Below are positions 205-54,471 of a stretch of DNA of 54,471 nt, piece after piece (position 1 is the first letter of the stretch; every line of letters starts with the position of its first letter). Under the pieces are notes generated by a model. That model was not told the origin of the DNA, did no database searches, and worked only from the letters and a program-made list of their open reading frames with translations. This DNA comes from a virus (Duplodnaviria; Caudoviricetes). The position numbers were made by a program, and so were the translations under genes. The stretch spans positions 1 through 54,471 of the IMG/VR virus record IMGVR_UViG_3300035688_000006. The stretch is one strand, 5' to 3'.

Positions 205-531
205 TTAATCCCATCCTTCATTGTCTGATTCAGCGCGCGAATGTCCTTCTTCGTCCATGTTGTTGCCAGCCAATAGATTGGGCAGAAAAGCCTTGGCCAA
301 CTTGAATCCGCCCGTGGCGCCGATTGCGACCTGAACCCAGATCATGAACAGGGCGAACGTGAACGGCGTGGACGTCTCGATGGCTTTGTAACTCACCACA
401 AAGATTGAGACCAAGACGGCCAAGATCGTCCCGGCGATGGGCGCGAGATCATGGCCCAAGAGTTTCTCGAGCCCTTTCTTAATGATCTGCGTCGCCGCCG
501 CTGTCAGTGCGATTAAAGCTATGATGTCCAT
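205..531 (-). CDS. Putative holin (three hydrophobic segments, acidic tail)
   Basis: 108 aa with TM-like stretches; RBS AAGGAG upstream. Confidence 0.55.
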   Translation of the reverse strand: MDIIALIALTAAATQIIKKGLEKLLGHDLAPIAGTILAVLVSIFVVSYKAIETSTPFTFALFMIWVQVAIGATGGFKLAKAFLPNLLAGNNMDEEGHSRAESDNEGWD

Positions 532-9168: not shown

Positions 9169-9602
9169 TTCTTCACCTCCTTCAATTTCTGGATTTCTTT
9201 TTTCAAGGCCTGGATCTCCTTACGTAAAGTTTTATTTTTAATAATAATCCTATAGATATCTTCAGAATGTTTGGTTTCTACACCTCGTGAATGAAGTGTA
9301 CGAGAAAGCAATTGAAGATTCTCGATTCTATTATCGTCTTTAATTCCATTTCGATGATGGATTATTTCTAGGCCAGGTTGTAATTTTCGTCCTAAATATT
9401 TTTCAAATATCATTCTATGTTCTTGTGTCCATTTATCGCCTGTCCAAATAAGAACATATCCTCCATTATCTGTTCTTCTTTCTCCTTTTTGAGGACCTAA
9501 TTTTGATGAACAATCTAGACAATAATATCTATAGCATCCCCGTTTTGTCTTTCTATCATGGGTCTTTCCGCAAACTACGCAGATTCCATCCTGGGTTCCC
9601 AT
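9165..9602 (-). CDS. HNH endonuclease
   Basis: [14 protein letters not shown]...[19 protein letters not shown]. Confidence 0.9.
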
Positions 9603-18674: not shown

Positions 18675-19115
18675 TCACCATCGGGCGCCATCGACCCAAT
18701 CATGTTCTATTCCAGGAATCGGGGGAACAAATATTTGCGCCTCGTCGACATGGATGAAGGTTTGGCCAGCCTCCCGATACTGCTTCCATCCGACCCGGAG
18801 CTCGGGATATATGGCTGTAATCCACTCGACCGTAATGTCCACCTCCCCCGCGTTTTTCAACGTGAGGTCAATAGCGCAAATGCTATGCGGCGAGAGCAAA
18901 ATGGCTGGATGATAATGATGCTCGTACTTTAGGCACCGGCAGCCGCCGCCCAAAGCTACTATAATTGGATGACCGACAAACGTCCGAATATCTTCGACCT
19001 TCCGGAAAAACCCTTCATACCTCGGATCCACCCCGAGCGCCGGCCAGATCTTCCCGCAGCAAGGGCATTGCAATTCTTCCCGATAAAAATGAGACCAGGG
19101 AAACAGGGGGATCAA
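18675..19115 (-). CDS. Endolysin, peptidase M15 family
   Basis: HFYREELQCPCCG, CRC, SPH...AIDL, FIHVD. Confidence 0.8.
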   Translation of the reverse strand: MIPLFPWSHFYREELQCPCCGKIWPALGVDPRYEGFFRKVEDIRTFVGHPIIVALGGGCRCLKYEHHYHPAILLSPHSICAIDLTLKNAGEVDITVEWITAIYPELRVGWKQYREAGQTFIHVDEAQIFVPPIPGIEHDWVDGARW

Positions 19116-24447: not shown

Positions 24448-25611
24448 TTAAAGAATTCTTAAATTTACAGATCGGAATATCTTTCCATTAGGGTATGTTC
24501 CCGCCAGCGCAATTCCGTTGCCCAAATAGGCAATAGAAAAGATATGGGTTTCCGCCGCCTGTTGTCCAAGGTCTGTCCAAGTAGCCCCATAATCCGTAGA
24601 GCGGAATATCTTTCCATGCAGGGCCGTTCCCGCCAGCGCAATTCCGTTGCCCAAATAGGCAAGAGAAAGGATATAGGTTTCCGCCGCCTGTTGTCCAAGA
24701 TTCGTCCAAGTAGCCCCATAATCCGTAGATCGGAATATCTTTCCATTAGGGTATGTTCCCGCCAGCGCAATTCCGTTGCCCAAATAGGCAAGAGAATAGA
24801 TATGGGTTTCCGCCGCCTGTTGTCCAAGGTCTGTCCAAGTAGCCCCATAATCCGTAGATCGGAATATCTTTCCATGCCCGCCTGTTCCCGCCAGCGCAAT
24901 TCCGTTGCCCAAATAGGCAAGAGAAAGGATATAGGTTTCCGCCGCCTGTTGTCCAAGATCCGTCCAAGGATAACGCCCAAGATCTTCGGTCAATCCCATC
25001 AATGCACCAAAAACACCTGGATAATAATTTTCGGCCATAGCCGAAATATTAATTCCCTTGGATTCGATAATTTTGGTGATATGTAAGTGATCAAATATTG
25101 GCCCATCCGTATCTTTTAAGTTATTTATGTTGGCTTTTTGTGCCGCATGAATATGATCTCTTCTTGAGGCATATAAGGAGATTCCATCTGCGGCCGTACC
25201 TATTTCAACCGGATCGCCCTCCGCGTCATTGAATGAATATACGGAACTTTTTAGATTTCCAAGTTGATCGAATACTCCATCAAGAGTCCATGTATCTCCA
25301 ACCGCAAGAGTCCCTTTCCAGATTTGTCTTGTCCCTCCCGACGAAACATATCTAATCGTAACGACTACGGCCGCCGTGTCCCTATTCTGTATTGTTATCG
25401 CTTTAATAATCCTTTGAGTGCTCGCCCCAGGGGAGGCAACCAAAGTAACTGGCGTAGTCCCGTTCAAAACCCCATCATTCGAGCCCTCAAGAAAAGAAGA
25501 AGTTGTAGCATCGGCATAATGAGCCGTAAAATCAGGATTTGTGGTAGCAGCCGCACCCGCCATGATGGCCGTTATGCTTTTAGTCGTTGCGTCAAGAATT
25601 AATATTTTCAT
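24448..25611 (-). CDS. Tail fibre / receptor-binding protein with C-terminal BNR (Asp-box) propeller repeats
   Basis: SRRDHIH fibre motif; four 43-aa repeats with RSTDYGATW. Confidence 0.75.
   Translation of the reverse strand: MKILILDATTKSITAIMAGAAATTNPDFTAHYADATTSSFLEGSNDGVLNGTTPVTLVASPGASTQRIIKAITIQNRDTAAVVVTIRYVSSGGTRQIWKGTLAVGDTWTLDGVFDQLGNLKSSVYSFNDAEGDPVEIGTAADGISLYASRRDHIHAAQKANINNLKDTDGPIFDHLHITKIIESKGINISAMAENYYPGVFGALMGLTEDLGRYPWTDLGQQAAETYILSLAYLGNGIALAGTGGHGKIFRSTDYGATWTDLGQQAAETHIYSLAYLGNGIALAGTYPNGKIFRSTDYGATWTNLGQQAAETYILSLAYLGNGIALAGTALHGKIFRSTDYGATWTDLGQQAAETHIFSIAYLGNGIALAGTYPNGKIFRSVNLRIL
24469..24968. repeat. About four tandem 129-bp near-identical repeats
   Basis: CGGAATATCTTTCC at 24473, 24602, 24731, 24860. 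Confidence 0.95.
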
Positions 25612-26561
25612 AATAGCCAACTCCTTTGTTTAGACTCAATTATTGATGCGGTCAATCCGGCAATGGCGGCCTGATTCAACGTCGCCCAGGCCGGTATAGC
25701 GCCCGTAACTCCGGCCAGATATTCTCCCGTTGCCCCTACCGCCGCGAGTTCGCCGATAGTATTCGCCGCCATAGCCACCGGCAACCGGAAGGCCGTCGCC
25801 GAGTTAGGCAGAATCAGCGTTGACCAAAGGGGAGCCGCGCCGACCCCGCCGCTCCGGAGATAGGAACCTACGGCAACGTCGGCGAGGGCCGCTAGGTTAG
25901 TCGTGGCCGAAGCATAGAGAATATCTCCTATGGCCAGGGCAGCTATATGAACTCCATCCACTAGATCAACGTTGAGATTCGTGCATTTAGTTGTGGACGT
26001 GACATTGAGAGGCATCGTCCCTATCGCTAAAGATGAGACGATCTGGCCTATGACCGTGATCACCCCGGCGGTAGAGATTTGAAGAATAGCTGCCGACCAG
26101 GATGCTCCATCGTGATGATGGATTTTTAGAGCATAAGTCTCAGCCAAATCCCTAATTGACAGACACCAGGTTTTATCGCCGCCTTCGTTTCGTAAATAAA
26201 AACAGGCATATCCACCCGTAGAATTCGTGCCTACCAAAGCTAGTGCTGCATTCGTAGCATTTGCGATTGTAAATTGCGCTGCTACCGGATCGGTCATCGG
26301 CGACGTGCCGCCGAGAACTATGGCCGTCGCACTTGCCCGATATAGAGGACTGTCTGCCACGGCACCTGCGGCAGTAGCGTAAGGCATATAACCCGCCGCA
26401 AGCGCAACATTCGAGGCGAGTTGGCCCGCCGCGTTCGTGACAACGAGCCTCGAGGCCGTCAGAGCTACGCCACCGCTGACAACTGCCCGGACATCGTTCA
26501 ATCGTAGTTTTAGCTCAGCAATCTGGCCCCGAATTTTGCTGAGATCGTCTTGAACACTCAT
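25608..26561 (-). CDS. Tail fibre protein
   Basis: N-terminal coiled coil; VTSTTKCTNLNVDLVDG and GDILYASAT fibre motifs. Confidence 0.7.
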   Translation of the reverse strand: MSVQDDLSKIRGQIAELKLRLNDVRAVVSGGVALTASRLVVTNAAGQLASNVALAAGYMPYATAAGAVADSPLYRASATAIVLGGTSPMTDPVAAQFTIANATNAALALVGTNSTGGYACFYLRNEGGDKTWCLSIRDLAETYALKIHHHDGASWSAAILQISTAGVITVIGQIVSSLAIGTMPLNVTSTTKCTNLNVDLVDGVHIAALAIGDILYASATTNLAALADVAVGSYLRSGGVGAAPLWSTLILPNSATAFRLPVAMAANTIGELAAVGATGEYLAGVTGAIPAWATLNQAAIAGLTASIIESKQRSWLL

Positions 26562-30401: not shown

Positions 30402-30957
30402 TACGCTTCCTCCTCCTCAATCGTCCTTATCTGCCACTTGATCGAATCGAAGAGGTCCGAGACGTCATCCGCCGAGCCATTCACGGCAATCCGCACGTTT
30501 CCAACAAAGTCCCGCTGTTCTGCAAGCAATTTCACTCTGGCCTTCTTTAGCCAAAAGTAGAAATCCCGGATGTCGAGCGCGAGCAGCCTGTCGAATGAAA
30601 AGAGACCAGGGAACGCCTCCGCTATTAAAGCGCAGGAGTTTCCCCAGTCTCTGATCTGTTTTTTGCCGCTTCCGGTTCACCCTTCCCGCGGATCCGGTCG
30701 CTTATATGTTCAACCAGATCTCTAAGGTCCATGATGTCCATGGCGTCGACGAGTTCCTTTGGGACGTTCGTCATCATCACAACTTGGTCATACAGTGCCC
30801 CAAAGTTTCCGGCCCTGATTTCGGCCTCGAGACCTTGCGCCGATTCCCACGTGGCCCTGTTCAGGCGGACGACGCTGTATGTCTCGCCGTCGACTTTGAA
30901 GGTGATGGGCCGTTGAAGCGTACCCTTCGTCGCGATATCCATTATCTTCCCGCTCAA
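30401..30957 (-). CDS. Tail assembly chaperone gpGT-like via -1 frameshift at 30664-30658
   Basis: -1 frame open (KQIRDWG...FPGLFSFDRLLALD...EEEEA) to a TAA overlapping the TMP ATG. Confidence 0.75.
30625..30957 (-). CDS. Tail assembly chaperone (gpG-like)
   Basis: Between tail tube and TMP; EAAKN encoded by slippery A AAA AAC. Confidence 0.75.
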   Translation of the reverse strand: MSGKIMDIATKGTLQRPITFKVDGETYSVVRLNRATWESAQGLEAEIRAGNFGALYDQVVMMTNVPKELVDAMDIMDLRDLVEHISDRIRGKGEPEAAKNRSETGETPAL

Positions 30958-31475
30958 GGATTGACCCCGATCGTCCCGAACTCACCCTCGTTCCCGCTGT
31001 CAAGGCTGGGGAATACCAGGAACTTGACGCCGAACGTCCTCTGGCCGCTCCGGTCGTAGCCGATCGCGAACTCCCTGTACGGATGGGCGTGGTAGATGTG
31101 GAGCCACTCGGACTTCACGGTACTCACCTTCCCGTCCTTGAACAGTTTGATGACGATGGCCTTCGCGTTGACGTACATGTCCGTCCCGCACTTGTTTTTC
31201 AGCAGCAAGGCGGATCCGCTCAGGCTCGACCCGGGCATCACCGTTTCGAGCTGGTTAAGCGTGCTACGTGTCATCGGAACGACGAGCTCCATGACCGACC
31301 CGGAGAAAACCGCGTCGACGTACGCATCCCCGTAGGCCTCTTCGTAGACCTTCGAGATCGAGTCCTTCATCGAAAGCTCGACCTTCCCCAGGAAGGGGGC
31401 TAGATTGACTTCCGTCCCTCCGTAGTCCCATGTAACTTGGCAAGGACCAATGTCCCCTATCGGGAGCTTTGGCAT
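30954..31475 (-). CDS. Major tail tube protein
   Basis: IGPCQVTW, WLHIYHAHP, GQRTFGVKF; position after terminator and before chaperone. Confidence 0.75.
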   Translation of the reverse strand: MPKLPIGDIGPCQVTWDYGGTEVNLAPFLGKVELSMKDSISKVYEEAYGDAYVDAVFSGSVMELVVPMTRSTLNQLETVMPGSSLSGSALLLKNKCGTDMYVNAKAIVIKLFKDGKVSTVKSEWLHIYHAHPYREFAIGYDRSGQRTFGVKFLVFPSLDSGNEGEFGTIGVNP

Positions 31476-31563: not shown

Positions 31564-32115
31564 ATGAGAAAAACTTATAAAAGGACAAAAGCAATAAAGG
31601 AAAAATTGCGTTAGGCCGCCCTCCGTGCCTATGAGAAAATGAGGATCGAGGGTCGCCCATACCCTATGACAGGAAGACATCATTCCCGGGCAGCAAGAAA
31701 GAAAATGTCTGAGGCGATACAGCATTATTTGGCTGCTCGTCGCAAAGCGGGACTTCCCCATTTTCTGGCCGGGAGAAAACGGCCTGAAGATCAAATCGAG
31801 AAACAACGCCAGACGATGAAAGGCCGTTATAAAGGCTCCGCAAACCCGGCCTGGAAAGGCGGACGGAAAATCAATCTCGGCTATTTTTATGTTCTTTGTC
31901 CTGGTCATCCAGAGGCTAATTCCCTCGGCTACGTCCGAGAGCACCGCCTTGTGATGGAGAAGAAACTTGGGCGTCTTCTCCGGCCCGGAGAAATTGTCCA
32001 CCATATCAACGGGATTAAGACGGACAACCGGCCCGAAAATCTCAGCCTTTTTCCGAGTAATAAGGCGCACAGCGATTTTCACCAGATTTGTCCCCATTGC
32101 GGTAAGCGCCTTTAG
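31564..32115 (+). CDS. NUMOD3-HNH homing endonuclease; in-frame TAG at 31612-31614, alternative start 31639
   Basis: GRHHSRAARKKMSEA, NPAWKGG, EHRLVMEKKLGR, HHINGIKTDNRPENL. Confidence 0.85.
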
Positions 32116-32123
32116 CTCGCTTT

Positions 32124-32543
32124 TCATAGCCTTGTTATCCTGAAAATAAAATTCATGCTGAATGAAAATACGCCTTTCTCCTCCGGATTCTCCAAGGGAT
32201 AGGGAGGGCTGACGCCATCAATCGTGTTCGCCAGATATTCCTCTCCCGACATGAGGACCGGCAATCGCCAGCCAGCTTGGCCATGCAGAAAATTGAATAT
32301 CTCATACGCCATGGCCCGGGCCGTGAAGTAGCTCTCAGCCTTGACGAGGACTTGGATCTCCTTCTGCTGGTAGTCCGGCCAGTCCCCATCCGTAGCACTC
32401 GGCGTTCTCTCGAGTACCACCGCCAACCGGATCGGCGGCTCCGTCCCGCTGGGCCGCCTGGTAGGCAGATGGCCACTGAATAGATTGACACCCAGCACGA
32501 AAGATGTATGGTCCTCGATGAACTGCGTGATCTCCTCGAGCAT
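32124..32543 (-). CDS. Tail terminator
   Basis: LGVNLFSG, IQVLVKA, AYEIFNFLHG, FSMNF. Confidence 0.7.
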   Translation of the reverse strand: MLEEITQFIEDHTSFVLGVNLFSGHLPTRRPSGTEPPIRLAVVLERTPSATDGDWPDYQQKEIQVLVKAESYFTARAMAYEIFNFLHGQAGWRLPVLMSGEEYLANTIDGVSPPYPLENPEEKGVFSFSMNFIFRITRL

Positions 32544-32956
32544 CAGGATCCTCCCGCCGCCTTCGCTATCTCGTCCGCGACGTATTTCATGTACTTCTCC
32601 TTATTCCTGGCCAGCTTCGTGCTTAGGAACTTTGGTCCCGACCCTGCTAATGTCCAATTCACTTGTTTTTCGCCGTATTGTTCGCTGGGTACCCACTCAT
32701 GAACTCGGGCAGCATAATCGGCATTGAATCCGGCCTCGACGCTTATATCGTCCGACGTGATATCAGGCGTTTCGATATGCTGAGTGCGTCTGAGATTTCC
32801 GGTTTTTTTCGGGACCGTAGGTTCTTCGCGCAGCGCATCCCTTATCACGAGCGCCCCCGCCCTGAAAAGAGCGTCGGCCGCGACCCTGGGAATGGTATTC
32901 TTCACGATCTCTGCGAACTTCATATCGAAATCCTTTGTATCTACCTCGAAACTCAT
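32543..32956 (-). CDS. HK97 gp10-like tail completion protein
   Basis: VPKKTGNLRR, NADYAARVHE, GPKFL. Confidence 0.8.
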   Translation of the reverse strand: MSFEVDTKDFDMKFAEIVKNTIPRVAADALFRAGALVIRDALREEPTVPKKTGNLRRTQHIETPDITSDDISVEAGFNADYAARVHEWVPSEQYGEKQVNWTLAGSGPKFLSTKLARNKEKYMKYVADEIAKAAGGS

Positions 32957-33258
32957 CTGACCAGCGCCTCCTTGTGATGGATATGAATCTGATTCTGCGG
33001 AGTGCTCAACTCCGCAATGGGATGGTCTTTGCCGTCGAACCGGAGGTAACTCTGATTCGTAGCCACTGAATTAGCTTTCAAAAAGACCTTTGCATAGCAA
33101 AGGATTTCCTGACCGCCCGTCGTCCGCACGAGCCTGTTCATGTACTCGATCCGGCACTTCTCCGGCGTGAGGACAATCACTCCCGTAGGTTCGCCCCATT
33201 TATCGTACTCCGCATCCACAACAACGCAATGATTTATGAGGAGGGAATTATAGCTCAT
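32953..33258 (-). CDS. Head closure (stopper) protein
   Basis: DKWGEP, CRIE...LVR; position. Confidence 0.65.
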   Translation of the reverse strand: MSYNSLLINHCVVVDAEYDKWGEPTGVIVLTPEKCRIEYMNRLVRTTGGQEILCYAKVFLKANSVATNQSYLRFDGKDHPIAELSTPQNQIHIHHKEALVR

Positions 33259-33790
33259 GCGTCACCACGATATAGAAGAACGGATTCTCCCGGATAATCT
33301 CATGCTTCCAGGCCTTGAATAATTTCTCCAGGCCCGCCGCATCATAGACTCGCAGGTGCCCGGGATCCGACACCTTTATCGTAGGGGTCGTGAACACGGC
33401 CTTCATCCTGGCCATCTCCACTACCGCCTTCGCAAACTCGGCGTCTGATTCGACGTGTTCCAGGACTTCGGAGCAAACGACCGAATCGAACCGCCCGGCG
33501 AGATTTGGCAACTCTTTGACTGTGTTAAGATAAATCCATCTCATGGACGGAAAAAGCCCCGCGGCCTTTACGATCGCCGGCTTTGAGAATTCCAAGCCCG
33601 ACCAATCTCCTCCTCGGAAGCCGGCCATGATTTGTGTGGAATGACCGAAGGCACACCCTACATCGCAGAACGACAGGCCGGCGACCAATTCCGCGCACCT
33701 CTTGAGCCTCGCCTGATGCTTGGGCCATTTTAAGTGAGTCCACACTTCTCTAGGCGCCCAATGCTTTTCCAGGTAATCGGTCGCGTTCAT
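33248..33790 (-). CDS. Class I SAM-dependent methyltransferase
   Basis: CDVGCAFG, FDSVVCSEVLEHV, TTP. Confidence 0.9.
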   Translation of the reverse strand: MNATDYLEKHWAPREVWTHLKWPKHQARLKRCAELVAGLSFCDVGCAFGHSTQIMAGFRGGDWSGLEFSKPAIVKAAGLFPSMRWIYLNTVKELPNLAGRFDSVVCSEVLEHVESDAEFAKAVVEMARMKAVFTTPTIKVSDPGHLRVYDAAGLEKLFKAWKHEIIRENPFFYIVVTHEL

Positions 33791-34701
33791 CTTACCCTCT
33801 CGCTTATCCAGAGCTGACGTATTTCCCCGACTACCGGGAAATTCTTCGTCACCTTGAAGCTCTTCTTCGCCAAGGCCTCGGTGAGCCAGCCGTGAGTAGG
33901 CAGAGTTTGCGTTCCCGCCCTTGTCAGCCTTGCGCCTGGCCCAGGATCCAGCCTCAACTCGAGAATCAATAGCCGGCGCGCGACCGTTGCCATCGAATTA
34001 AGCGCCACCTCAAAATGATTCGCCGGAAAATAATGGGGAAGCCCAAGACAATGAACGATGTCAAAACTCTCCATGAACAGCGGCCCGGCAGCCAGCCAAT
34101 CGGCCTGCCGAAATGAAACCCTATTCTCGAGCTTGAGCTGAGCCGCAGCCTTCTTCGCCAAGGCCGCCATGTCTGATCTCAGCTCGATTCCGAGCGCGTT
34201 TTTCGCCCCGGCCAGCACGGATCCCAAGCAGACGAACCCACAATGGCTTCCGATGTCCAGTACGCTTGCCCCGCAATAATCGACCGCCTCTTCGAGGTGA
34301 CGCCACTTTTTATCCCTGCAGGCCGTGAGCCAGGCCAGGTCCTTTTTATCGCCTTTGACGTTGGCCTTGACCAGCGTCTCGAGTACCGTAAATAGGCTGG
34401 GATTGAAATGATGGCACCGAGCGTGGGCCTCGACCTGGACCGTACTCATGCCCCTTATCTTCGCAATATGCAGACGATGGGTCCCGTCCTCGAGCCTCCG
34501 GTGGACGCAACAATAATAAAGCGGCTTGAACTTCCCGCCATCAAAACCCTTGATGAGCTCTGCGATTCGGGCCTTCCAGGATGGCTTGTCCTTTCTCTGA
34601 TTGATATAGCTCCACAGGAACGCCAAGGCCGGGCTATCTACCTCGACCTCGATGATCTGCCCTGGATTGAGGAAGGCTATATCTTTATTTTCAATGCTCA
34701 T
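33787..34701 (-). CDS. ParB-like domain fused to class I SAM methyltransferase
   Basis: LEDGTHRL; VLDIGSHCG; FDIVHCLGLPHY. Confidence 0.8.
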   Translation of the reverse strand: MSIENKDIAFLNPGQIIEVEVDSPALAFLWSYINQRKDKPSWKARIAELIKGFDGGKFKPLYYCCVHRRLEDGTHRLHIAKIRGMSTVQVEAHARCHHFNPSLFTVLETLVKANVKGDKKDLAWLTACRDKKWRHLEEAVDYCGASVLDIGSHCGFVCLGSVLAGAKNALGIELRSDMAALAKKAAAQLKLENRVSFRQADWLAAGPLFMESFDIVHCLGLPHYFPANHFEVALNSMATVARRLLILELRLDPGPGARLTRAGTQTLPTHGWLTEALAKKSFKVTKNFPVVGEIRQLWISERVR

Positions 34702-35357
34702 TGTCCCACTCTCGCCGCCCGACTTTGTTTCCAGACCTTCGCATAGAACGCCTCTCTCTCGTCCCGGGCACCTGGATTGTAATAGAGGCACCCAGGGCCG
34801 CTTGCGTCGGCCAAACTCACATAGTTTTTAGTCGGTACTATAATCTTTTTAACTTCCGGCCAAATACCGCATTGACAGAACAGGTCCTCGATGGCCGTAC
34901 CGCACCCCTTCAAGTCGTACGCCAACAAGCTCCTGTCGCACATCGTACAAACGCCGACGAAGTCTACCTGAACCGGCCTGTCAATTTGCCTTGCCGAATA
35001 GCACACGGTGTTTTTATAATATGCCGCTCCGTTGAACGTCCTGCCGTGGACTCCATAAAATGCCGTTCCGTATATTTTCCACGTTGCCAGGAAATCATCG
35101 ACCAGCCCGGCCTTCGGCATCACGTCGTCATCGGCCTTGAACACGAGCTCTCCGTTCGTCATCAGAGCCATAGCGTGACGTGCCTTGCTTCCGGGATCCG
35201 GGGAGAACCGGACATGCCTGACCCCATCCGGTGCCTTGAACGACGTTCCAGAACAATCGGCCAGCCACACTTCGTTTGCCTGGGCCAGCCAGCTCTTGAG
35301 GATCGGCCCGAGTGTCTCAAGCCTCCGGTAGCTCACTACAACCACACTAACGTCCAT
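34698..35357 (-). CDS. GT-A fold glycosyltransferase
   Basis: VSVVVVSYRR, KADDD (DxD), IEDL. Confidence 0.8.
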   Translation of the reverse strand: MDVSVVVVSYRRLETLGPILKSWLAQANEVWLADCSGTSFKAPDGVRHVRFSPDPGSKARHAMALMTNGELVFKADDDVMPKAGLVDDFLATWKIYGTAFYGVHGRTFNGAAYYKNTVCYSARQIDRPVQVDFVGVCTMCDRSLLAYDLKGCGTAIEDLFCQCGIWPEVKKIIVPTKNYVSLADASGPGCLYYNPGARDEREAFYAKVWKQSRAARVGQ

Positions 35358-35937
35358 CCGCTGCTCCCTGGATTAGATGATTTTCAGGACGTCCCCTACC
35401 TGCGACTGACTGCATCTTTGCCACCACGAGATCCAGCCACATGTGGTCTTTCGTCTTGCTATAACAACGGGCGATGAAACTGAAATCGCCTCCGAATCTC
35501 TGCCGCCCAAATTCGTGGATATATTTCCTCCAGATGTCCGTCCTGATAGCAAAGCAAAACGAAGCTATTTCCGTATAGAGAGGAGTCCTGCCCCAGCGTT
35601 CCGGACGCGGCAACGTCCCGAACCCAGCCGTTATTCCCTTAAAAAAGACGATCTCCGGAGTCCGACCCTCTATCTTCTTTTTGAATATCTCCACAAACCG
35701 CGGCTCGATTAGCTGGTCGTCGTCGTCCAGGACCATGACGTACTGCGCGTCGATGGATTTGATTTTCATAAAAGACTGATTCGCCAATAGCCCTCCATAT
35801 CCCGTCGGCGTCTTGTCGTCCCTGTGAATGATGTGGATGTAGTCCTCGTCCGTCTGGCTCTTGACCGACTCGATGCAGACCGCCAGCATCTTCGGCCGCT
35901 GCGGATGAACGCGGGTCACGAAGGCAATCGTTTTCAT
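35347..35937 (-). CDS. GT2-like glycosyltransferase
   Basis: CIESVKSQT, YVMVLDDDD, GGDFSFI. Confidence 0.85.
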   Translation of the reverse strand: MKTIAFVTRVHPQRPKMLAVCIESVKSQTDEDYIHIIHRDDKTPTGYGGLLANQSFMKIKSIDAQYVMVLDDDDQLIEPRFVEIFKKKIEGRTPEIVFFKGITAGFGTLPRPERWGRTPLYTEIASFCFAIRTDIWRKYIHEFGRQRFGGDFSFIARCYSKTKDHMWLDLVVAKMQSVAGRGRPENHLIQGAADGR

Positions 35938-37445
35938 CGGTACTCCCACTGCTGTTCGATTTCCGGAAGGCCGCGCGCCGTCCGTATCGACCGCGTTCCT
36001 CGGGGAATGTGATGGATGTATTCTCTCAGCTCTCCCTTCCACGTGAACCCCTGGCCTGCCGAATGACCGAGGCCCACGAACTCTTTTAAAACCTTATTGG
36101 ACAGCCCCTTCTTGTAGATATCGAGCATCGTCAGAAAACACGGGGCCCCATGATGCACGTAGCGGTGATACTTTTTATAATTGCCGATGTCTATCAGTTG
36201 GAAATAAGGATGAAGATAAGGCATCCAGCCTTCGCTAACATGATGGGAGTGAGCTCCATAATTGTAGCCATCGAACCCTGTCTTTTCGATATACCCGACG
36301 CCGAACGTGTCCGGCTCCATCATGGCCAGCATGGCCTCCACCGGGGATTTCAGCATTTCGATATCCGAATCGAATACCAAGGCGTACCTCGTCCTGACTT
36401 TATCAAGCCCCATGCACAAGCCCCGGCCGTGCCCTATGTTATATCCCAGCGAAATGACGGTCGTCTTGTAAGAGGCGAGGCTCTTTACATAGGCGGCGCA
36501 TGGGTCGCCAGCGTCCGACCCGTCGATGATGATGATCGGCATGTCCGGATGGAACTTGCGAATCGAGTTATAGGCCCTCTCGATCAGCGCTTGCGAATTC
36601 CAGCACACTGAAACCCCTGTTATGGGAAGGACGTTGGGAAAATAGGATTTATAATTGTCCTCCGTCAGCTTCCCGTTCAGTATGTCCATGTAGACCCGGA
36701 AGTCTTTAGGCACCCACCGCTTGAGGATAGCCCTGTCTGAGCTGTCCACGGTTTTATAAAGCGTAGTCTTGTGACCCGCTCCGATCCCCGCGCGTCCGGG
36801 CAGCCCCTTCATCCCTAGATACAATGGCTTCTCCGTGTCGACGAAGAGATATCCAAGGCTCCCGGCTTTTTGCCATAACCGGGTGTCCAGGAATGGATTG
36901 CTACTCGCCTCGAGCAGCTCTTTAACTGTCGGGATGAACGAACTCTTGAACCCCGTTTCCGCAAGCGAAGCATGGGCCGTGTTCCCGATCTGCATGTAGC
37001 CGCCGGATACGATGTGATAATACTTGGCCCTCATGATTCCGACGACCCTATGCGCCTCCAACTGCCGGGACATTTCTTTGATGTAATCCGGGGCGTAATA
37101 CTCATCGTCCTCGATGATCACAACATTATCGCCCTGGATTAAGGGGAGCACAGCCCTCAGATTCAGGGCGAGCGTATGCTTCGGATCCTCCGGCTGCGGT
37201 TCTCTCCGTACATATTGCATGCCCCATGAAGGGATCATCGGCACCTTCCCGTCGTCCACTACGAGCCATTGGTCGGGAGGCCTTGTTTGGTTTCTCATCC
37301 ACTGCTGACAGAGAGCAAAGGCTAACGGCCTGTCCCCGGTCGGCGTGATAGCCGTGACCTTGGACCTGACCTTGGGCTTGGGCTTTTGGGGAGGCTTGGA
37401 TAAACCGTACTTTTTTACATTGTCCCGAAACCGACTGAGGGCCAT
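35934..37445 (-). CDS. Double GT-A domain glycosyltransferase
   Basis: Domain 1 ITPTGDRP, VVDDG, IEDDEYY; domain 2 IIDGS, IGHGRG, VFDSD. Confidence 0.85.
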   Translation of the reverse strand: MALSRFRDNVKKYGLSKPPQKPKPKVRSKVTAITPTGDRPLAFALCQQWMRNQTRPPDQWLVVDDGKVPMIPSWGMQYVRREPQPEDPKHTLALNLRAVLPLIQGDNVVIIEDDEYYAPDYIKEMSRQLEAHRVVGIMRAKYYHIVSGGYMQIGNTAHASLAETGFKSSFIPTVKELLEASSNPFLDTRLWQKAGSLGYLFVDTEKPLYLGMKGLPGRAGIGAGHKTTLYKTVDSSDRAILKRWVPKDFRVYMDILNGKLTEDNYKSYFPNVLPITGVSVCWNSQALIERAYNSIRKFHPDMPIIIIDGSDAGDPCAAYVKSLASYKTTVISLGYNIGHGRGLCMGLDKVRTRYALVFDSDIEMLKSPVEAMLAMMEPDTFGVGYIEKTGFDGYNYGAHSHHVSEGWMPYLHPYFQLIDIGNYKKYHRYVHHGAPCFLTMLDIYKKGLSNKVLKEFVGLGHSAGQGFTWKGELREYIHHIPRGTRSIRTARGLPEIEQQWEYR

Positions 37446-38209
37446 TAAACAACTCCTCCACCCAGGACCTCGTCTACGGTCTGAAATTCAAAACAGCGTA
37501 GTCCCGATCCTGGATTGAGATTGACGACTCTTGTCCCGGCCGCCTTGATCTTCGGCGCCCATTTCTCGAACGGACCCTTGTATTTGTCGAGCGTCTCCTG
37601 AGCCAGAGGCCTCGTATGCCCCTCGTGCCAGTGCGTCCCCGCGGGGCCGATCGTCATGTCGTAGCCGAGCAGGTAAATGGGATTTGCCCCTAACAGGAAC
37701 GCCAGATTCAACGCTCCAAAGCCGCTGTTGTCGCCGTGCCCGCAGCCCTCTTCCATTTTGAACGAAAAATTCTTCATCCCGAAGTCGTGATTCTTGAGCA
37801 CCCTGATTACAAAAATATCCTCCGGCAATTTGGCCGAATAGGTGAGGAGCCAGCACTTATACGCCGGCGTCTTTTCAAACTTCTCCTTTAACCCTGGGTA
37901 TATCTCGTCGTACCTTCCGTTCAATATCCAATGCAAAAACCGGGTGTCCATCGCGAACGCTACCGTCGGGTCGAAATAGTAAAACGCGAGATTGATACCG
38001 ATCGTTCGAAGCCCATCGAGCCTCTTCCAATCGAAGCCCTTCAAGCTCGGGCCTCCACCGACGATGAACGCCGGTCCGTCCGACCAGCATCCCGCCGGCA
38101 ACACTTCGGAGATTTGACGGTTTGAGATCGTCGGCGATTTGAATAGAATGGGAGCCCGGCCCAGAACCCAGGGGATCTGTTCTTTCATTTCCGCCAAGCT
38201 CTCCATCAT
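37445..38209 (-). CDS. DUF115/MptE/Maf-like glycosyltransferase-family protein
   Basis: IVGGGPSL, IGIN, NSGFGALNLA...IYLLGYDM, VVNL. Confidence 0.7.
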   Translation of the reverse strand: MMESLAEMKEQIPWVLGRAPILFKSPTISNRQISEVLPAGCWSDGPAFIVGGGPSLKGFDWKRLDGLRTIGINLAFYYFDPTVAFAMDTRFLHWILNGRYDEIYPGLKEKFEKTPAYKCWLLTYSAKLPEDIFVIRVLKNHDFGMKNFSFKMEEGCGHGDNSGFGALNLAFLLGANPIYLLGYDMTIGPAGTHWHEGHTRPLAQETLDKYKGPFEKWAPKIKAAGTRVVNLNPGSGLRCFEFQTVDEVLGGGVV

Positions 38210-42831: not shown

Positions 42832-43455
42832 TTAGATCGAATTGCCGTGTATCTTGGCTATCTTCTTACAATAGATTATAAATTCTTGATCTGTCCTGGA
42901 TCCCTTCGTCCAATTGCATGAATGGCAGATAATCCTAATGTTTTCAATATCGATTGTTTTCCCGTTATGAATACGGTCAAGTGATGGAGTATTGTTATAT
43001 GTTCCCTTCCCTTTATACTCCCAATGCAGACCGTCTCCGCAATAGAAACAATGATCGGTTTTCCCTGCAAGTTCTATTAATTGGGCAGTCGTTAAGGTTC
43101 CTTTAATTCCCCGATATTTATGATGATAAAGAGTATCTCTAGCCCACATTTTTATATTAAACTTTATATCTTGTTTTCTTTCTTCAGTGATTTTTTTGCA
43201 ACGTTCTCTCCCATATTCGGGATGTAATCGTCGCCATTCTTTGTTAAGGTATTTAATCTTTTCTTTATTTTCTAGACAATATTTTTTCCTATATTCCTTC
43301 ATTTCTTCGGAATGTGCACGATGCCATGCATTTGCACGATCCGGATGAGCCTTATTAAAAGCGGATTGTCTTGCTAATATACGTTCTTTGTTTTTTAAAT
43401 AATATTTATGTTGATAGGCTTTCCCATCCATAGAAATATTATATAGCAAATCCAT
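42832..43455 (-). CDS. HNH endonuclease
   Basis: CFYCG...PSLDRI...NIRIICHSCNWTKG; AT-rich. Confidence 0.85.
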   Translation of the reverse strand: MDLLYNISMDGKAYQHKYYLKNKERILARQSAFNKAHPDRANAWHRAHSEEMKEYRKKYCLENKEKIKYLNKEWRRLHPEYGRERCKKITEERKQDIKFNIKMWARDTLYHHKYRGIKGTLTTAQLIELAGKTDHCFYCGDGLHWEYKGKGTYNNTPSLDRIHNGKTIDIENIRIICHSCNWTKGSRTDQEFIIYCKKIAKIHGNSI

Positions 43456-50933: not shown

Positions 50934-51014
50934 ATTTCTTTATCATTTTGGGGACTTCATTTTTATCGACATAATCCACGTATCGCTTTATTGGATTTCA
51001 TTTTATATGTTCAC

Positions 51015-51043
51015 TTGACAGGAAATTCGCGGCGATTTATATT
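51015..51043 (+). promoter_or_regulatory. Sigma70 promoter for the DUF523 gene
   Basis: TTGACA-N17-TATATT; AAGGAG RBS at 51061. Confidence 0.75.
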
Positions 51044-51071
51044 TTAAGTGCAAATAAAGAAAGGAGTTAAG

Positions 51072-51533
51072 ATGATTATCTATTGCAGTTCGTGTCTTCT
51101 CGGGAAGCAATGCCTCTGGCATGGTAATATTCTTAAATTCTCGGCAGGGGGAATCGCGATGATTGCTGCGGCTGGCCATATCTTCATCGATTCCTGCCCC
51201 GAGATACTTGGCGGTTTGTCTTGTCCTCGCCCCCCTTCTTATCGCAGGCCTAATCGCCCGGGCCTGCTCATCGCGGCCGGCAAGGACGTCACGCCGGCGT
51301 TCGAACTCGGGGCAAGGCGGGCGCTGGCATTTCTGCGCGAAGCGCGGCCGCGTCCAGAGCTCGCCCTCCTGTTGGCCAAAAGTCCCTCCTGCGATCCCGG
51401 CTTCGGGATATTTGGCCGCGAAGCGGCAAAATTTATCCACGCGATCGCCTGCAATCGCAAGGATGGCCTCTGGCTCGAGCAGGCCTTGAAATTCTTGCAT
51501 ATCCTTCCACCTCAACGATATTTATTCCAATAG
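51072..51533 (+). CDS. DUF523 / TudS-like thiouracil desulfurase (Fe-S)
   Basis: SSCLLG, CPEILGGLSCPRPP, DVT..F..GA, KSPSC, GIF. Confidence 0.85.
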   Translation: MIIYCSSCLLGKQCLWHGNILKFSAGGIAMIAAAGHIFIDSCPEILGGLSCPRPPSYRRPNRPGLLIAAGKDVTPAFELGARRALAFLREARPRPELALLLAKSPSCDPGFGIFGREAAKFIHAIACNRKDGLWLEQALKFLHILPPQRYLFQ

Positions 51534-52708
51534 TTATAAAAATAATCAATATTATTATCACCTGAATGGCGAGGAAATTTCAAGGTCATTGCCAAGATGC
51601 GCATTTCTTCCCAAAGCATTGGATAACATGTTTGGAGCGCTTCCCACTGAGGACTGGATTTACTTTTTCCTTGAAATGGACACATCCAACAAGCTGTTCT
51701 CTTAAATCCCCGAACATAACCAGGCCAAAGCAATCCCTCTGCTTTTTTTAATAATTCCTCATACTCATCCTTTGATGTTTTGAAATAGGGGGAATAACTT
51801 AATCCCTTCGAGGATAAATGTACCGATGATCTTCGGGTACGACTTATAATTTGATCGGGTCGCCCTCCCCTTATTTTCAAAACCTTGACCGGGTCCGTAT
51901 TATCTATCGTCTTCTCTATAACATCGTTTATGAACATATGTTGGCAATCTCGATATATGGGGTCTGGCCATTTCCCTTTCTGAATATAATGCGCTATGAT
52001 ATTTTCTGTCGCATGTAGTATACGGAGATTGAATCCTTGTGCCTTCGCCAGACGCAAAATATACGCTATTAAATCTGGAAATTCGGCCCCCGTTTCAACA
52101 AATAAAGCCTCAAATGATTTCCCAATAATTTCACAAGCTTTTTTAGTCCAATATAAGGCGAGAAGAGAATCTTTGCCGCCACTGAATTCAACAAAAATAT
52201 ATTCAAAATTCGCCAACCAGATAAGCTTATCTTCGGGTATTTGCGGAAGATCCGGAAGTTTAATTAAATTATCCAATTGATTTCCACCTGGTCCATATTG
52301 TTCAATTATATTTTTTAAATTTACCGCCTTTCCTAGATCGATCTTATAATCCTCAAGATTAATTTCTTCAAAATGCGGATATACCAGTTCGGCCAATTTA
52401 TCCTCGAGATATTCCCCCGCCCGATCATTGTCCGAGAGCGCGTATTTTATCTTTTCCGCTTTCGTCTCAGCCCTGACGACTGATATTTCAACATCTTTAT
52501 GGCCAAGTTCCAGAAGTGCCCTTATCCTCATATTCCCGCCGAGCGTTATGAATCCGCCGTTCTCCTCAACGCAGATGAGCGGCTTATAAATTCCGAGGTC
52601 CTGGATCTGCCGCTTCAGACGCCCAAAGTCGGCGGTCTTGATATTTCTGGGATTTTCCGCCCATGGCTTGACGAACTCAATTGAGACTTTCCGGATGTCC
52701 ATTCCCAT
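51512..52708 (-). CDS. ParB-like N-domain fused to PAPS-reductase-family (PP-loop) domain
   Basis: PWAENPR, GGNMR; FSGGKDS, ETGAEFP, RTACWMCPF. Confidence 0.85.
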   Translation of the reverse strand: MGMDIRKVSIEFVKPWAENPRNIKTADFGRLKRQIQDLGIYKPLICVEENGGFITLGGNMRIRALLELGHKDVEISVVRAETKAEKIKYALSDNDRAGEYLEDKLAELVYPHFEEINLEDYKIDLGKAVNLKNIIEQYGPGGNQLDNLIKLPDLPQIPEDKLIWLANFEYIFVEFSGGKDSLLALYWTKKACEIIGKSFEALFVETGAEFPDLIAYILRLAKAQGFNLRILHATENIIAHYIQKGKWPDPIYRDCQHMFINDVIEKTIDNTDPVKVLKIRGGRPDQIISRTRRSSVHLSSKGLSYSPYFKTSKDEYEELLKKAEGLLWPGYVRGFKRTACWMCPFQGKSKSSPQWEALQTCYPMLWEEMRILAMTLKFPRHSGDNNIDYFYNYWNKYR

Positions 52709-53050
52709 CTTGGGCCTCTTCCCGGCTTCAATAATGGGACAGAATGAGGATGGCTGTCAAGAAAAAAGTTATTTTATTGAATCAGATTATATTTATTGGC
52801 CACCAATTTTGGCCTAGCCCATTAGCATTGAAACCGCCGCTATTCCTCGCTCATCCTCTTCTCATAGCAGTCCGGCCCGCAGAATATTCTGTGATTCGGA
52901 TGGATGTATCTGATACCTGGATGGATAATCCCGCAAATCGGGCACTGCACGGCTATCCCCGATTCCAACGCCTCTCTGACGGACATTCTGTTGATTTTTT
53001 TCATTAAATCGTTATACCGTTTGTCATGTGTCATTTTCCTTGAATTTTCG

Positions 53051-53248
53051 CTAGCTTTTATTCGCACATCCGGGGCATAGATGCGACCAATCTCCGACAT
53101 CATCCTTGGATATCTTCCAGCCGATCATTTTTGCGTCGGCTATAAAATCCTTGAAATAAGTTCGGTCAAAAAATTCGGATATTCCGCAGTCGTCACATTC
53201 CATATCAAAGCCGGAAATTCCGCCTTCCCTGGCCCAATCAGTTATCAT
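53051..53248 (-). CDS. Small zinc-ribbon protein
   Basis: CDDC...GW...LCPGC. Confidence 0.6.
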   Translation of the reverse strand: MITDWAREGGISGFDMECDDCGISEFFDRTYFKDFIADAKMIGWKISKDDVGDWSHLCPGCANKS

Positions 53249-53307
53249 TTTCCTCTATGGTCTAAGCTTATGCATGTGTTCATGCTCCGTAGCTATCGGT
53301 TCGCTAT

Positions 53308-53610
53308 TTATTTCTCGGGTATCTTCCTGTACTTTTTGAGCTCGAGTTCCAACTCGGCGACTTTGCTCCACGCCCAAATCGCCTTGAGGATGAAAGCCTT
53401 GGTCACAATCGTATACTCGCCGGCCGGATCCGCGTCGGCAGCCCAGGCCAGGACGCCCGCTGTGATCGACCCTATGACCTTCTCCTCCCCGACCGGCACG
53501 TAAATATTGGGGGGAGGGATCTTACCGCAAGCCGTGAAGTAGCTTAGCGATAATACGATTGAGAGCGTCAAAATCATTGCTCTCCATGGCTTTGAGCGCA
53601 TCTTGTTCAT
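53308..53610 (-). CDS. Lipoprotein, probable outer-membrane spanin
   Basis: Signal peptide with lipobox FTAC followed by PPP; overlaps the upstream gene in another frame. Confidence 0.55.
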   Translation of the reverse strand: MNKMRSKPWRAMILTLSIVLSLSYFTACGKIPPPNIYVPVGEEKVIGSITAGVLAWAADADPAGEYTIVTKAFILKAIWAWSKVAELELELKKYRKIPEK

Positions 53611-53734
53611 CTTTGTTCCTTTCCTTTTGAATTTCGTCGATTTTCTCATTGATCTTCTCCAACTCTGTCTTTAACAGATGAGGCAATAATTGGAGAACCA
53701 GCTCTAGAATTCCTCCGATCACTTCTCCCGGCAT
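53522..53734 (-). CDS. Possible inner-membrane spanin
   Basis: Hydrophobic N-terminus plus coiled coil; Rz/Rz1-like overlap. Confidence 0.45.
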   Translation of the reverse strand: MPGEVIGGILELVLQLLPHLLKTELEKINEKIDEIQKERNKDEQDALKAMESNDFDALNRIIAKLLHGLR

Positions 53735-53922
53735 GTTAGTCCTTGAATAATCCGGATTTCTCCGCTTCTGTCAAAACCGATAAGACGTGTTCGTATACGC
53801 GATTATAAGCGGCAGTCTCCAACTTCGGAAGTTCCGGCGGTCTAATGCTCGACCAAAAAATAAGCATGATTTTTTCGGTCAACATACCCGCTTTTGTTTT
53901 TGGTGTTTCCATGTTATTCCTC

Positions 53923-54327
53923 CTAAAATCTAAATTTAACAAAATCTCCGCGCCTCCTCGGGGAATCGTCGGGAAAACTGATGAAGGTGAGTTTGTAGAG
54001 ACCGTTCTCTGATTCTAATCCGACCGGGTACGCTCGGTAAACTGTTAGCCACGTTTTTTTTGCCGATACAATTCCTCCGGCCGCCCGTTTCAAAATGAGT
54101 TTCTTGGATTCGGCATACACCGATGCCGGCTTCATCCTGGCCTTTATGAGCTTACGGAGCACGACTCTCAAGCCCGAGTTGCCCTCAAAAGTGCATTGGA
54201 ATTTGAGAACCGATGTGTAAAGCCCCGCGTTCTTTTGAACTGCCATACAGTCTTTTGCCAAGCCGAGCTCCTTCTTGTCCCACACTACCTTGCATGGACC
54301 CAGGTCTGATACGTAATTCGGGCTCAC
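53923..54327 (-). CDS. Shortened paralog of the major tail tube protein
   Basis: Collinear motif matches to 30954..31475 (see findings). Confidence 0.7.
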   Translation of the reverse strand: MSPNYVSDLGPCKVVWDKKELGLAKDCMAVQKNAGLYTSVLKFQCTFEGNSGLRVVLRKLIKARMKPASVYAESKKLILKRAAGGIVSAKKTWLTVYRAYPVGLESENGLYKLTFISFPDDSPRRRGDFVKFRF

Positions 54328-54471
54328 CTCACCGCCCCTTCATCCCCGCTCCCCGGTTTCCCGATGGCCACGTCCATGACCCATTCTTGCACCTTTGCTG
54401 CAAGTTTGTGTGACATGATGAATTCCTAGTTTTTATTTAATAAAACCCGCCTTACAAATTCTGCCATGACG

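What the first reader, a model, noticed from the sequence alone, without database searches (positions are those of the whole stretch)
53923..54327. Orphan, hairpin-deleted tail tube paralog: candidate tail-assembly poison or decoy
Seen: this 134-aa ORF aligns by eye along its length with the tail tube protein (30954..31475): SDLGPCKVVWD vs GDIGPCQVTWD; VYAESKKLILKRAAGGIVSAKKTWLTVYRAYP vs MYVNAKAIVIKLFKDGKVSTVKSEWLHIYHAHP; LTFISFPDDSPRRRGDF vs VKFLVFPSLDSGNEGEF. It lacks the ~20-aa segment around SISKVYEEAYGDAYVDAVFSG, has a shortened second hairpin, is much more Lys/Arg-rich, and lies ~22 kb from the tail module next to spanin-like genes. Known: in siphovirus tail tube proteins the long beta-hairpin in this region mediates subunit and ring contacts. 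Inference: a tube subunit able to dock but not extend could block tail assembly of competing phages, act as a decoy for host sensors of tail proteins, or be a repurposed nucleic-acid-binding protein.
Basis: partly seen in the sequence, partly recalled or inferred. Interest (0 to 1): 0.78.

Follow-up and report, generated by a model that had tools for sequence, protein, structure and literature searches.

The report
Orphan diverged tail-tube gene copy
A sediment phage carries, far from its tail genes, a second, shortened and heavily diverged copy of its tail tube gene that none of the related phages examined has. The copy is probably still translated, probably no longer builds tails, and its role is unknown.

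Summary
ORF 53923..54327(-), 134 aa, is a true homolog of this phage's tail tube protein (30954..31475). BLASTP gives E 1e-6. Smith-Waterman gives 77 against 28±5 in shuffles, reached by 0 of 2000. A tube-family HMM gives E 6e-10.

Only residues 6-20 and 64-131 align robustly. The centre is 32 residues shorter and one loop is 6 shorter. Where the central deletion lies is not resolved.

The gene is a singleton. It has no other homolog in 1.84 billion representatives or in any collection searched. Fifteen of 15 related phage records have one tube gene; this phage has two.

It sits at a mosaic spot at the head of the lysis/packaging gene run. It has a roughly 60-fold longer tree branch than its relatives and keeps only 12 of 32 near-invariant family residues.

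Its Lys/Arg richness is what random stop-free sequence of this base composition gives, so it is not evidence for DNA binding.

The frame is nevertheless open (6e-4 by chance), codon-biased in frame and translationally coupled.

Best reading: a lineage-specific tube duplicate that has left the tube role. The poison and decoy roles remain untested. Moderate interest.

The parts
53923..54327 (-). ORF134: a 134-aa, basic, shortened and highly diverged paralog of the tail tube protein. GTG start at 54327, TAG stop at 53925-53923.
   Evidence: ORF. Homology. Its frame is the only one of six with a positive codon score. GC3 0.59 > GC1 0.49 > GC2 0.41. An identical 134-aa protein is called on contigs assembled from public sequencing runs.
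54324..54416 (-). 30-aa upstream ORF. Its TGA overlaps the GTG start of ORF134 (GTGA). A mosaic junction lies inside it.
   Evidence: Sequence, ORF. In runs X1 and X2 a 30-base node at 54373-54402 joins the phage contig and a 5107-base contig of about 2.3-fold depth that is unlike to the left of 54373.
53736..53912 (-). 58-aa downstream ORF. Its AGGAGG ribosome-binding site (53924-53919) overlaps the ORF134 stop codon.
   Evidence: Sequence. No family match. No similarity to the tail chaperone, terminator or tape measure proteins.
53308..53734 (-). Overlapping pair: a 70-aa coiled-coil ORF (53522..53734) and a 113-aa predicted lipoprotein (53308..53649). Spanin-like context only.
   Evidence: Translations (signal-like N-terminus and a lipobox-like FTAC; the lipobox motif is recalled, not tested). 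No family hits.
30954..31475 (-). The phage's regular tail tube (major tail) protein, 173 aa; the family from which ORF134 derives.
   Evidence: Followed by the chaperone (PF10109-like) and the tape measure protein. AF2 pLDDT 87.5. Foldseek gives 19 PDB matches at E<=0.001, led by tail tube proteins. 60 homologs. 26% identical to the 'major tail protein' of Bacillus phage vB_BauS_KLEB27-1.

Best explanation
ORF134 is a lineage-specific duplicate, or a close-relative import, of the phage's own tail tube gene. It has left the tube role and evolved very fast. It kept the N-terminal arm motif and the C-terminal part of the fold. It lost 32 central residues, a conserved loop, and most polar near-invariant residues.

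It is still translated, promoter-proximal in the run of genes that leads through lysis-type genes into ParB, terminase, head and tail. That would put it in the cell together with the real tube protein.

Inferred, not shown: it keeps a tube-like core but cannot polymerise. It would then act as a soluble accessory protein that binds something which normally recognises tube protein, either a host sensor of tube protein (as a decoy or inhibitor) or growing tubes (as a cap).

The identity part (a diverged, non-canonical tube paralog that is kept open) is well supported. The binding role is a guess, at roughly 1 in 4.
For: Homology.

Derivation from within the family, on the window tube's side:
- Smith-Waterman scores against 55 family members rise with their closeness to the window's tube (Spearman 0.56).
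- The tree places ORF134 in the 28-row half that holds the window's tube (SH-aLRT 99), with an end branch of 8.49 against a median of 0.14.

No longer a standard tube protein:
- 12 of 32 near-invariant residues are kept.
- The centre is 43 aa against 75 aa.
- A canonical terminator candidate, tube, chaperone and tape measure set already exists at 27.4-32.9 kb.

Kept open and coding-like:
- Only 125 of 200000 composition-matched shuffles lack an in-frame stop.
- The codon score is positive only in this frame.
- GC3>GC1>GC2.
- The GTGA overlap with the upstream ORF, and the next gene's ribosome-binding site lying over the stop codon.

Core against surface: 16 of 24 non-polar near-invariant positions are kept or conservatively replaced, against 2 of 8 polar ones (Fisher 0.096).

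Contiguity: two run assemblies cover 51000-54402 with 0 differences. These runs may be the source samples.

Context: in the 55-kb relative G001, an amidase, a small membrane protein (holin-like by eye) and a spanin-like cassette sit upstream of ParB and terminase, in the same position.

Host sensors of tail tube protein exist: Avs16 contacts the tube beta-hairpin (passages of PMC13581612), and DSR2 is countered by DSAD1 (abstracts).
Against: There is no relative of any kind, so there is no conservation, no dN/dS, and no evidence that the deletions are selected.

Family-conserved residues are not kept more often than residues invariant only in the close subclade: 12/32 against 10/34, Fisher 0.60. 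That is what relaxed selection would give.

Amino-acid composition and net charge match random stop-free sequence.

AF2 could not fold it from the single sequence (pLDDT 43.9), so retention of the fold is not shown.

No RNA or protein evidence was available. The polar residues that probably make tube contacts are mostly gone, which argues against docking on tubes. The promoter and terminator scans were uninformative.
Confidence: 0.5

Rival explanations
1. It is a relic with no protein-level function. A stray tube-gene copy drifts freely in sequence, and its frame stays open only because translation through it feeds the downstream small genes by coupling, or because the segment is young and will be lost.
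For: - Singleton: absent from 15 of 15 related records.
- A mosaic junction lies 46 bases upstream of its start.
- No preferential retention of family-conserved residues.
- Composition and net charge as in random ORFs.
- Very long branch.
- Only in-frame length changes, and tight coupling signals at both ends.
- The single-sequence fold failed.
Against: Reaching about 25% identity by drift should have produced many stops, yet only 6e-4 of random sequences of this composition are open. Codon bias and the GC1/2/3 pattern are still those of a coding frame. Phage genomes usually delete useless DNA; that rests on established knowledge, not on a test here.
Confidence: 0.3
2. It is a minor virion or tail-assembly component encoded away from the tail module, for example a capping, initiating or variant tube subunit used in few copies.
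For: The N-terminal arm motif (D8, G10, P11, C12, W16) and C-terminal core residues (Y101, W124, P132, F155, G164) are kept. It is probably co-expressed with late genes, inferred from gene order. Tube-fold proteins that stop tube growth (tail terminators) are an established principle (recalled).
Against: A terminator candidate (PF12691, 23.7 bits against a cut-off of 23.8) and a gp10-like protein already sit in the tail module. None of 15 relatives with the same tail module needs a second copy. The polar invariant residues and the DRxxQR loop are lost.
Confidence: 0.1
3. It is a recently imported, still ordinary tube gene of an unsampled distant phage lineage with a short tube protein.
For: Tube proteins of 130-140 aa exist among the Foldseek targets (for example target lengths 130-141). 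The locus is mosaic.
Against: It is more similar to the window's own subclade than to the rest of the family. It keeps only 12 of 32 near-invariant residues. No such lineage appears in 1.84 billion representatives. No tail-module neighbours came along with it.
Confidence: 0.07
4. The similarity is chance, or the ORF is spurious.
For: No family library recognises the ORF. A gene caller chose a shorter start, giving 120 aa.
Against: 0 of 2000 shuffles reach the score. HMM E 6e-10. The matching N-terminal motif lies upstream of the shorter start. It is the only coding-like frame.
Confidence: 0.02

Closest known systems
Siphovirus tail tube / major tail proteins: this phage's own 173-aa family (phrog_2175-like). 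Solved examples among the Foldseek hits are 9jgh, 8ygm (phage SPR), 8xkn and Bxb1 9d93.
   Same: Demonstrable sequence homology at both ends of the protein. Shared N-terminal D-[IL]-G-P-C-x-V-x-W-D motif and C-terminal aromatic, Pro and Gly positions.
   Different: It is 39 aa shorter, with the centre cut from 75 to 43 aa. It has lost 20 of 32 near-invariant residues. pI is 9.9 against 4.2-6.3. It lies 22 kb outside the tail module. It is present in this phage only. It is not recognised by phrog_2175 or any library at E<=1.
Tail terminator proteins (lambda gpU type; Pfam Phage_tail_terminator families)
   Same: Size is similar, at about 130-140 aa. The gpU comparison is recalled, not tested.
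   Different: ORF134 has no sequence match to any terminator family. The phage has its own candidate at 32124..32543. ORF134 descends from the tube family itself.
DSAD1, the phage inhibitor of the tube-sensing DSR2 defence
   Same: A small phage protein that interferes with a host sensor of tail tube protein (abstracts of PMC10981675 and PMC11087589). This would be the closest functional analogue if ORF134 is a decoy.
   Different: ORF134 has no sequence similarity to any PDB chain at E<=10. I did not check that the library includes the DSAD1 complexes. Nothing here shows that ORF134 meets a sensor, and the host and its defences are unknown.
Tube-fold paralogs inside tail modules (distal tail protein N-domain, T5-type extra tube-like proteins, fused double tube domains as in P74-26)
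   Same: Duplication and re-use of the tube fold is common in long-tailed phages (search listing; details recalled).
   Different: Those paralogs are conserved, sit in the tail module and are virion parts. ORF134 is a singleton outside the module.

Membership tests
Tail tube protein family of this phage group (alignment A1, 56 sequences) | Significant similarity to the family profile | tested here: met
   hmmsearch E 6e-10 against a single target. hhalign E 7.6e-5. The own-genome search finds it at E 5e-4. It is too weak to surface in library-scale searches.
Tail tube protein family of this phage group (alignment A1, 56 sequences) | Full-length match, including the central region with the long beta2-beta3 hairpin and the helix | tested here: not met
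   Only residues 6-20 and 64-131 align. The centre is 43 aa against 75 aa.
Tail tube protein family of this phage group (alignment A1, 56 sequences) | Near-invariant residues (>=90% of members) kept | tested here: not met
   12 of 32 are kept. Lost residues include G7, Y18, D38, E45, E46, P67, R70, G97, Q145 and R146.
Tail tube protein family of this phage group (alignment A1, 56 sequences) | Position between the terminator/completion genes and the chaperone plus tape measure genes | tested here: not met
   It lies at 53.9-54.3 kb. The tail module is at 27.4-32.9 kb. Its neighbours are unlike the tail-module neighbours.
Tail tube protein family of this phage group (alignment A1, 56 sequences) | Acidic protein | tested here: not met
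   pI 9.94 against a family range of 4.17-6.29, median 4.66.
Tail tube protein family of this phage group (alignment A1, 56 sequences) | Tube fold | tested here: inconclusive
   The single-sequence AF2 model has pLDDT 43.9. Foldseek on it gives no match at E<=0.001.
Tail tube protein family of this phage group (alignment A1, 56 sequences) | Polymerises into the virion tube | not testable with these tools
   Needs virion proteomics or in-vitro assembly.
Tail terminator proteins | Match to a terminator family, and position directly upstream of the tube gene | tested here: not met
   No Pfam, PHROG or NCBIfam hit for ORF134. The terminator-like gene is 32124..32543.
Anti-defence decoy or inhibitor of tube-sensing immunity (DSAD1-like in function) | Binds and silences a tube-sensing defence protein | not testable with these tools
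   The host is unknown: no prophage relatives were found in 185,579 species' genomes. No sensor is at hand.

The most novel reading that the evidence does not exclude
ORF134 is a structural-protein mimic. It would be a tube-derived, non-polymerising protein made from the promoter-proximal end of the late gene run. It would either occupy host sensors that recognise tail tube protein (DSR2- or Avs16-type) without triggering them, or cap the tubes of co-infecting close relatives. On this reading it evolves at arms-race speed, and that is why it is a singleton at a mosaic locus. I found no described case of an anti-defence or exclusion gene born by duplication of the very protein that the host senses. 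That statement rests on the full-text searches only.
Probability: 0.1. Interest if true: 0.8.

Novelty: new variant of a known kind. Interest (0 to 1): 0.4.

Why it matters
Tail tube proteins are now known targets of bacterial immune sensors. Tube-fold duplication is also how terminators and tail-tip proteins arose. A fresh, fast-evolving tube duplicate outside the tail module would show the first step of such re-use.

If it binds a sensor or rival tails, it would be a new route to counter-defence or to competition between phages.

As it stands it is a single gene in a single uncultured sediment phage with no relatives, so its general weight is limited. A relic kept open only by translational coupling remains a serious alternative.

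Tried and rejected
- Family libraries: Pfam, PHROGs and NCBIfam give nothing for ORF134 at E<=1.
- Protein searches: the search for homologous proteins returns only the ORF itself. The 1.84-billion representative search returns the ORF itself plus P0062, an 864-aa Lys-rich repeat protein that I judge a compositional artefact.
- Locus scans: none in viral contigs, metagenome contigs or genome contigs. tblastn against 50,697 phage records finds none at E<=1. PDB phmmer finds none at E<=10. ESM Atlas gives no usable hit.
- Cluster look-up: the second member is identical, so there is no variation to analyse.
- Structure: the AF2 single-sequence model has pLDDT 43.9. Foldseek on it gives nothing at E<=0.001; the rank-1 row, a phage tail chain at E 0.99, is not significant.
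- Complex prediction of tube plus ORF134: no answer, score 0.00, controls not run. This is no evidence either way.
- Sequencing runs: no RNA holder is listed.
- Uncovered stretches in X4 and X5: these runs hold pieces of the same or related phages at 51.0-53.9 kb, with no cover over most of ORF134. No contig joins across it, so nothing is concluded from that.
- Exact 60-base search for the shared right-hand flank: no match in viral or metagenome contigs.
- Segmental copy of terminator-tube-chaperone: rejected. The neighbours of ORF134 show no similarity to the tail-module neighbours. Of 16 comparisons only one is low, the 30-aa ORF against the gp10-like protein, at 4/1000 shuffles over an 8-residue patch; this is not significant after 16 tests.
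- Promoter and terminator scan: 9 promoter-like sites against 5.2±2.6 expected, and no terminator on the minus strand; uninformative.
- Host identification through prophage relatives of the tube gene: none found.
- Earlier findings of this scan were not open.
- Lys/Arg richness as a sign of DNA binding: rejected as evidence.
- Supplementary files of the papers were not seen.

Full report
WHAT THE WINDOW IS

The window is a whole IMG/VR virus record of 54,471 bases. It is classed as linear, and CheckV estimates 100% completeness. Nearly all of its genes are on the minus strand; one HNH gene at 31639..32115 is on the plus strand.

Read in the direction of transcription, the window runs as follows:
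- small ORFs at 54.4-52.8 kb
- a ParB/PAPS-reductase fusion
- large terminase, then portal
- head genes
- a block of methyltransferase- and glycosyltransferase-like genes
- a gp10-like gene and a terminator-like gene (PF12691, 23.7 bits against a cut-off of 23.8)
- the 173-aa protein at 30954..31475
- a chaperone (PF10109-like)
- a 1011-aa tape measure protein
- distal tail genes
- an endolysin-like gene
- DNA metabolism genes

IS THE 173-AA PROTEIN THE TAIL TUBE?

Yes.
- Its position between the terminator-like gene and the chaperone is the classical one.
- With 56 relatives aligned, AF2 gives pLDDT 87.5 and pTM 0.79.
- Foldseek finds 19 PDB chains at E<=0.001, led by tail tube proteins: 9jgh, SPR 8ygm, JBD30, 8xkn and Bxb1.
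- The only cultured relative is annotated 'major tail protein': Bacillus phage vB_BauS_KLEB27-1, 26% identity, E 1e-4.

IS ORF134 HOMOLOGOUS TO IT?

Yes.
- BLASTP gives E 1e-6.
- Smith-Waterman gives 77 against 28±4.8 in 2000 shuffles of either partner, and none reaches it.
- A family HMM gives E 6e-10 with two stretches, ORF residues 6-20 and 64-102.
- hhalign aligns 65-129 at E 7.6e-5.
- Searching the phage's own DNA with the family alignment returns the tube gene and, second, ORF134.

The GTG at 54327 is the first start codon in the open frame. The matching N-terminal motif lies upstream of the shorter start that one gene caller chose. A second caller gives the 134-aa form.

WHAT IS MISSING AND WHAT IS KEPT

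Only the two ends align robustly. Between them, 43 residues stand where the tube protein has 75. In the tube model that stretch holds strands 33-43 and 54-68 (the long hairpin), helix 73-79 and a small hairpin.

BLASTP and MAFFT place the gaps differently. So 'the hairpin tip is deleted' is possible but not shown.

A 6-residue shortening of loop 135-146 appears in every alignment. That loop carries the family-invariant R142 and Q145.

Of 32 columns that are at least 90% conserved in the family and invariant in the window's subclade, ORF134 keeps 12. The kept ones are mostly aromatic, Pro, Gly or aliphatic. Of 34 columns invariant only in the close subclade, it keeps 10. The difference is not significant (Fisher 0.60).

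Non-polar near-invariant positions are kept or conservatively replaced in 16 of 24 cases, against 2 of 8 for polar ones (Fisher 0.096).

THE CHARGE ARGUMENT

ORF134 has pI 9.94 and net charge +14. The family is acidic, with pI 4.2-6.3.

Random stop-free ORFs drawn from this genome's coding-strand base composition have K+R 21.1, D+E 11.1 and net +10.0±5.6. Of these, 26% reach +14. The basic character is therefore what loss of the old constraint would give by itself. It is not evidence for nucleic-acid binding.

HOW ISOLATED IS IT?

No other homolog exists in any collection searched:
- 5.8 billion clusters by word search
- 1.84 billion representatives read in full (the second hit is a Lys-rich repeat protein)
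- IMG/VR, JGI metagenome and GTDB genome contigs
- 50,697 phage records
- PDB and the ESM Atlas

The tube family itself is well sampled, with 60 proteins and 59 IMG/VR loci. From those 59 loci I picked the 15 records with the longest contigs. Nine are at least 90% complete, one is 84%, and five are 9-76%. All 15 have exactly one match to the family alignment at E<=10, under a search that finds two in the window.

ORF134 used as the query finds only the ordinary tube gene in one of the first five of these records.

The closest long relative is G001 (55.3 kb, tube 73% identical). It is collinear from the tail through the terminase, but has nothing like window 52.7-54.5 kb.

WHERE DID IT COME FROM?

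Its Smith-Waterman scores against 55 family members rise with their identity to the window's tube (Spearman 0.56). The best score is 102, with G001's tube.

In a quick maximum-likelihood tree it falls in the 28-row half that contains the window's tube (SH-aLRT 99). Its end branch is 8.49 changes per column against a median of 0.14. The program warns that the placement of such a long row is unsure.

I read this as descent from within the family, on the window's side, followed by extreme acceleration. It does not look like an ancient separate tube lineage.

IS IT STILL A GENE?

For:
- Only 125 of 200,000 composition-matched shuffles lack an in-frame stop.
- Its frame is the only one of six with a positive codon score.
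- GC3 0.59 > GC1 0.49 > GC2 0.41, as in the phage's other genes.
- Its GTG overlaps the TGA of the upstream 30-aa ORF, and the AGGAGG of the next gene overlaps its stop codon.
- Two run assemblies cover 51000-54402 without a difference, although these runs may be the source samples.

Against:
- No relatives, and so no test of selection.
- Composition and retention pattern look like relaxed constraint.
- No expression data.

THE LOCUS IS MOSAIC

In runs X1 and X2 the phage contig (depths 13.8 and 20.7) ends at 54402. A 30-base node at 54373-54402 is shared with a 5107-base contig of depths 32.9 and 29.8, which is unlike the window to the left of 54373. Both flow into a 1491-base contig whose depth is about their sum (45.9 and 46.6). 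That contig runs about 1392 bases beyond the window's end.

So a more abundant co-occurring relative shares the DNA upstream of the 30-aa ORF's codon 15, but has other sequence where ORF134 lies. By my hand translation of the 30 loose letters, the small ORF in that relative reads on instead of ending after 30 codons.

In X5 a contig shares only 54338-54374 and is unlike on both sides.

The window's end is therefore not a physical genome end.

In G001 an amidase, a small membrane protein and a long spanin-like protein sit just upstream of ParB and terminase. In the window, a coiled-coil ORF overlapping a lipoprotein ORF follows ORF134, and a three-helix membrane protein (205..531) lies at the other end of the record. 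ORF134 thus sits in the lysis-type, variable stretch that precedes the packaging genes. This layout resembles lambda's late operon, which is a recalled comparison.

READING

Shown:
- ORF134 is a diverged, shortened tube paralog.
- It is unique to this phage and lies outside the tail module.
- It is no longer under the tube family's constraints.
- Its frame is kept open.

Inferred:
- It is translated with late genes.
- It keeps a tube-like core but does not polymerise.

Guessed: it binds a partner of tube protein.

Host sensors of tube protein are documented. Avs16 contacts the tube's conserved beta-hairpin (passages of PMC13581612). DSR2 is triggered by tube protein and blocked by DSAD1 (abstracts of PMC10981675, PMC11087589 and PMC11290490 in the listing). 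I found no report of a tube-derived decoy in three full-text searches.

The main rival is a relic whose frame is kept open only for translational coupling, or which is simply young. A minor virion role and a recent import are less likely. Chance similarity is excluded.

VERDICT

One of its arguments, the Lys/Arg richness, is removed. Interest is moderate, at 0.4. The gene is a new variant of a known kind.

Noticed in passing
window 31639-32115 (+): An HNH endonuclease gene (phrog_20891, E 1.3e-25) lies on the opposite strand, between the terminator-like gene and the tube gene. G001 lacks it, and there the two genes are adjacent. A homing-type nuclease right beside the tube gene could have promoted the ectopic copy. 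This is speculation.
   Followed up: partly
window 54373-54471 and beyond: Run assemblies continue about 1392 bases past the window's last base, in a contig shared with a more abundant relative. The record's end is therefore an assembly break, not a genome end. Whether it closes onto window position 1 could not be checked.
   Followed up: partly
window 33248-38209 (-): A block of modification-type genes sits inside the head-tail module: two methyltransferase-domain proteins (33248..33790 and 33787..34791), a sialyltransferase-like protein (37445..38209, phrog_4603, E 1.8e-27) and a 503-aa protein with a faint GtrB-like match. The sialyltransferase-like gene is shared with G001 at 57% identity. 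This may point to virion glycosylation or methylation.
   Followed up: no
window 24469-24968 (-), inside gene 24448..25620: Three overlapping direct copies with 129-base spacing (89-97% identical), that is 43-aa tandem repeats in a tail-region protein.
   Followed up: no
window 51512-52708 (-): A fusion of a ParB N-terminal domain and a PAPS-reductase domain lies just upstream of the terminase region. It has low GC (0.41) compared with its neighbours. G001 has only a 185-aa ParB-like gene there.
   Followed up: no
window 205-531 (-) and 53308-53734 (-): A three-helix membrane protein, holin-like by eye, lies at one end of the record. An overlapping coiled-coil and lipoprotein pair, spanin-like by eye, lies at the other end. 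The only endolysin-like match is far away at 18675..19115 (phrog_894, E 8.9e-9). No family match supports the holin or spanin calls.
   Followed up: partly
window 54324-54416 (-) against 32543-32956 (-): The 30-aa ORF shares an 8-residue patch (6 identical) with the gp10-like tail protein. The Smith-Waterman score is 35 against 20.9±3.6, reached by 4 of 1000 shuffles. This is not significant after 16 comparisons.
   Followed up: yes
window 556-897, 9165-9602, 42832-43455 (-): Three further low-GC genes (0.35-0.36) of endonuclease or HNH type are scattered through the genome, one of them (42832..43455) inside the head module. The phage looks heavily colonised by homing-type nucleases.
   Followed up: no
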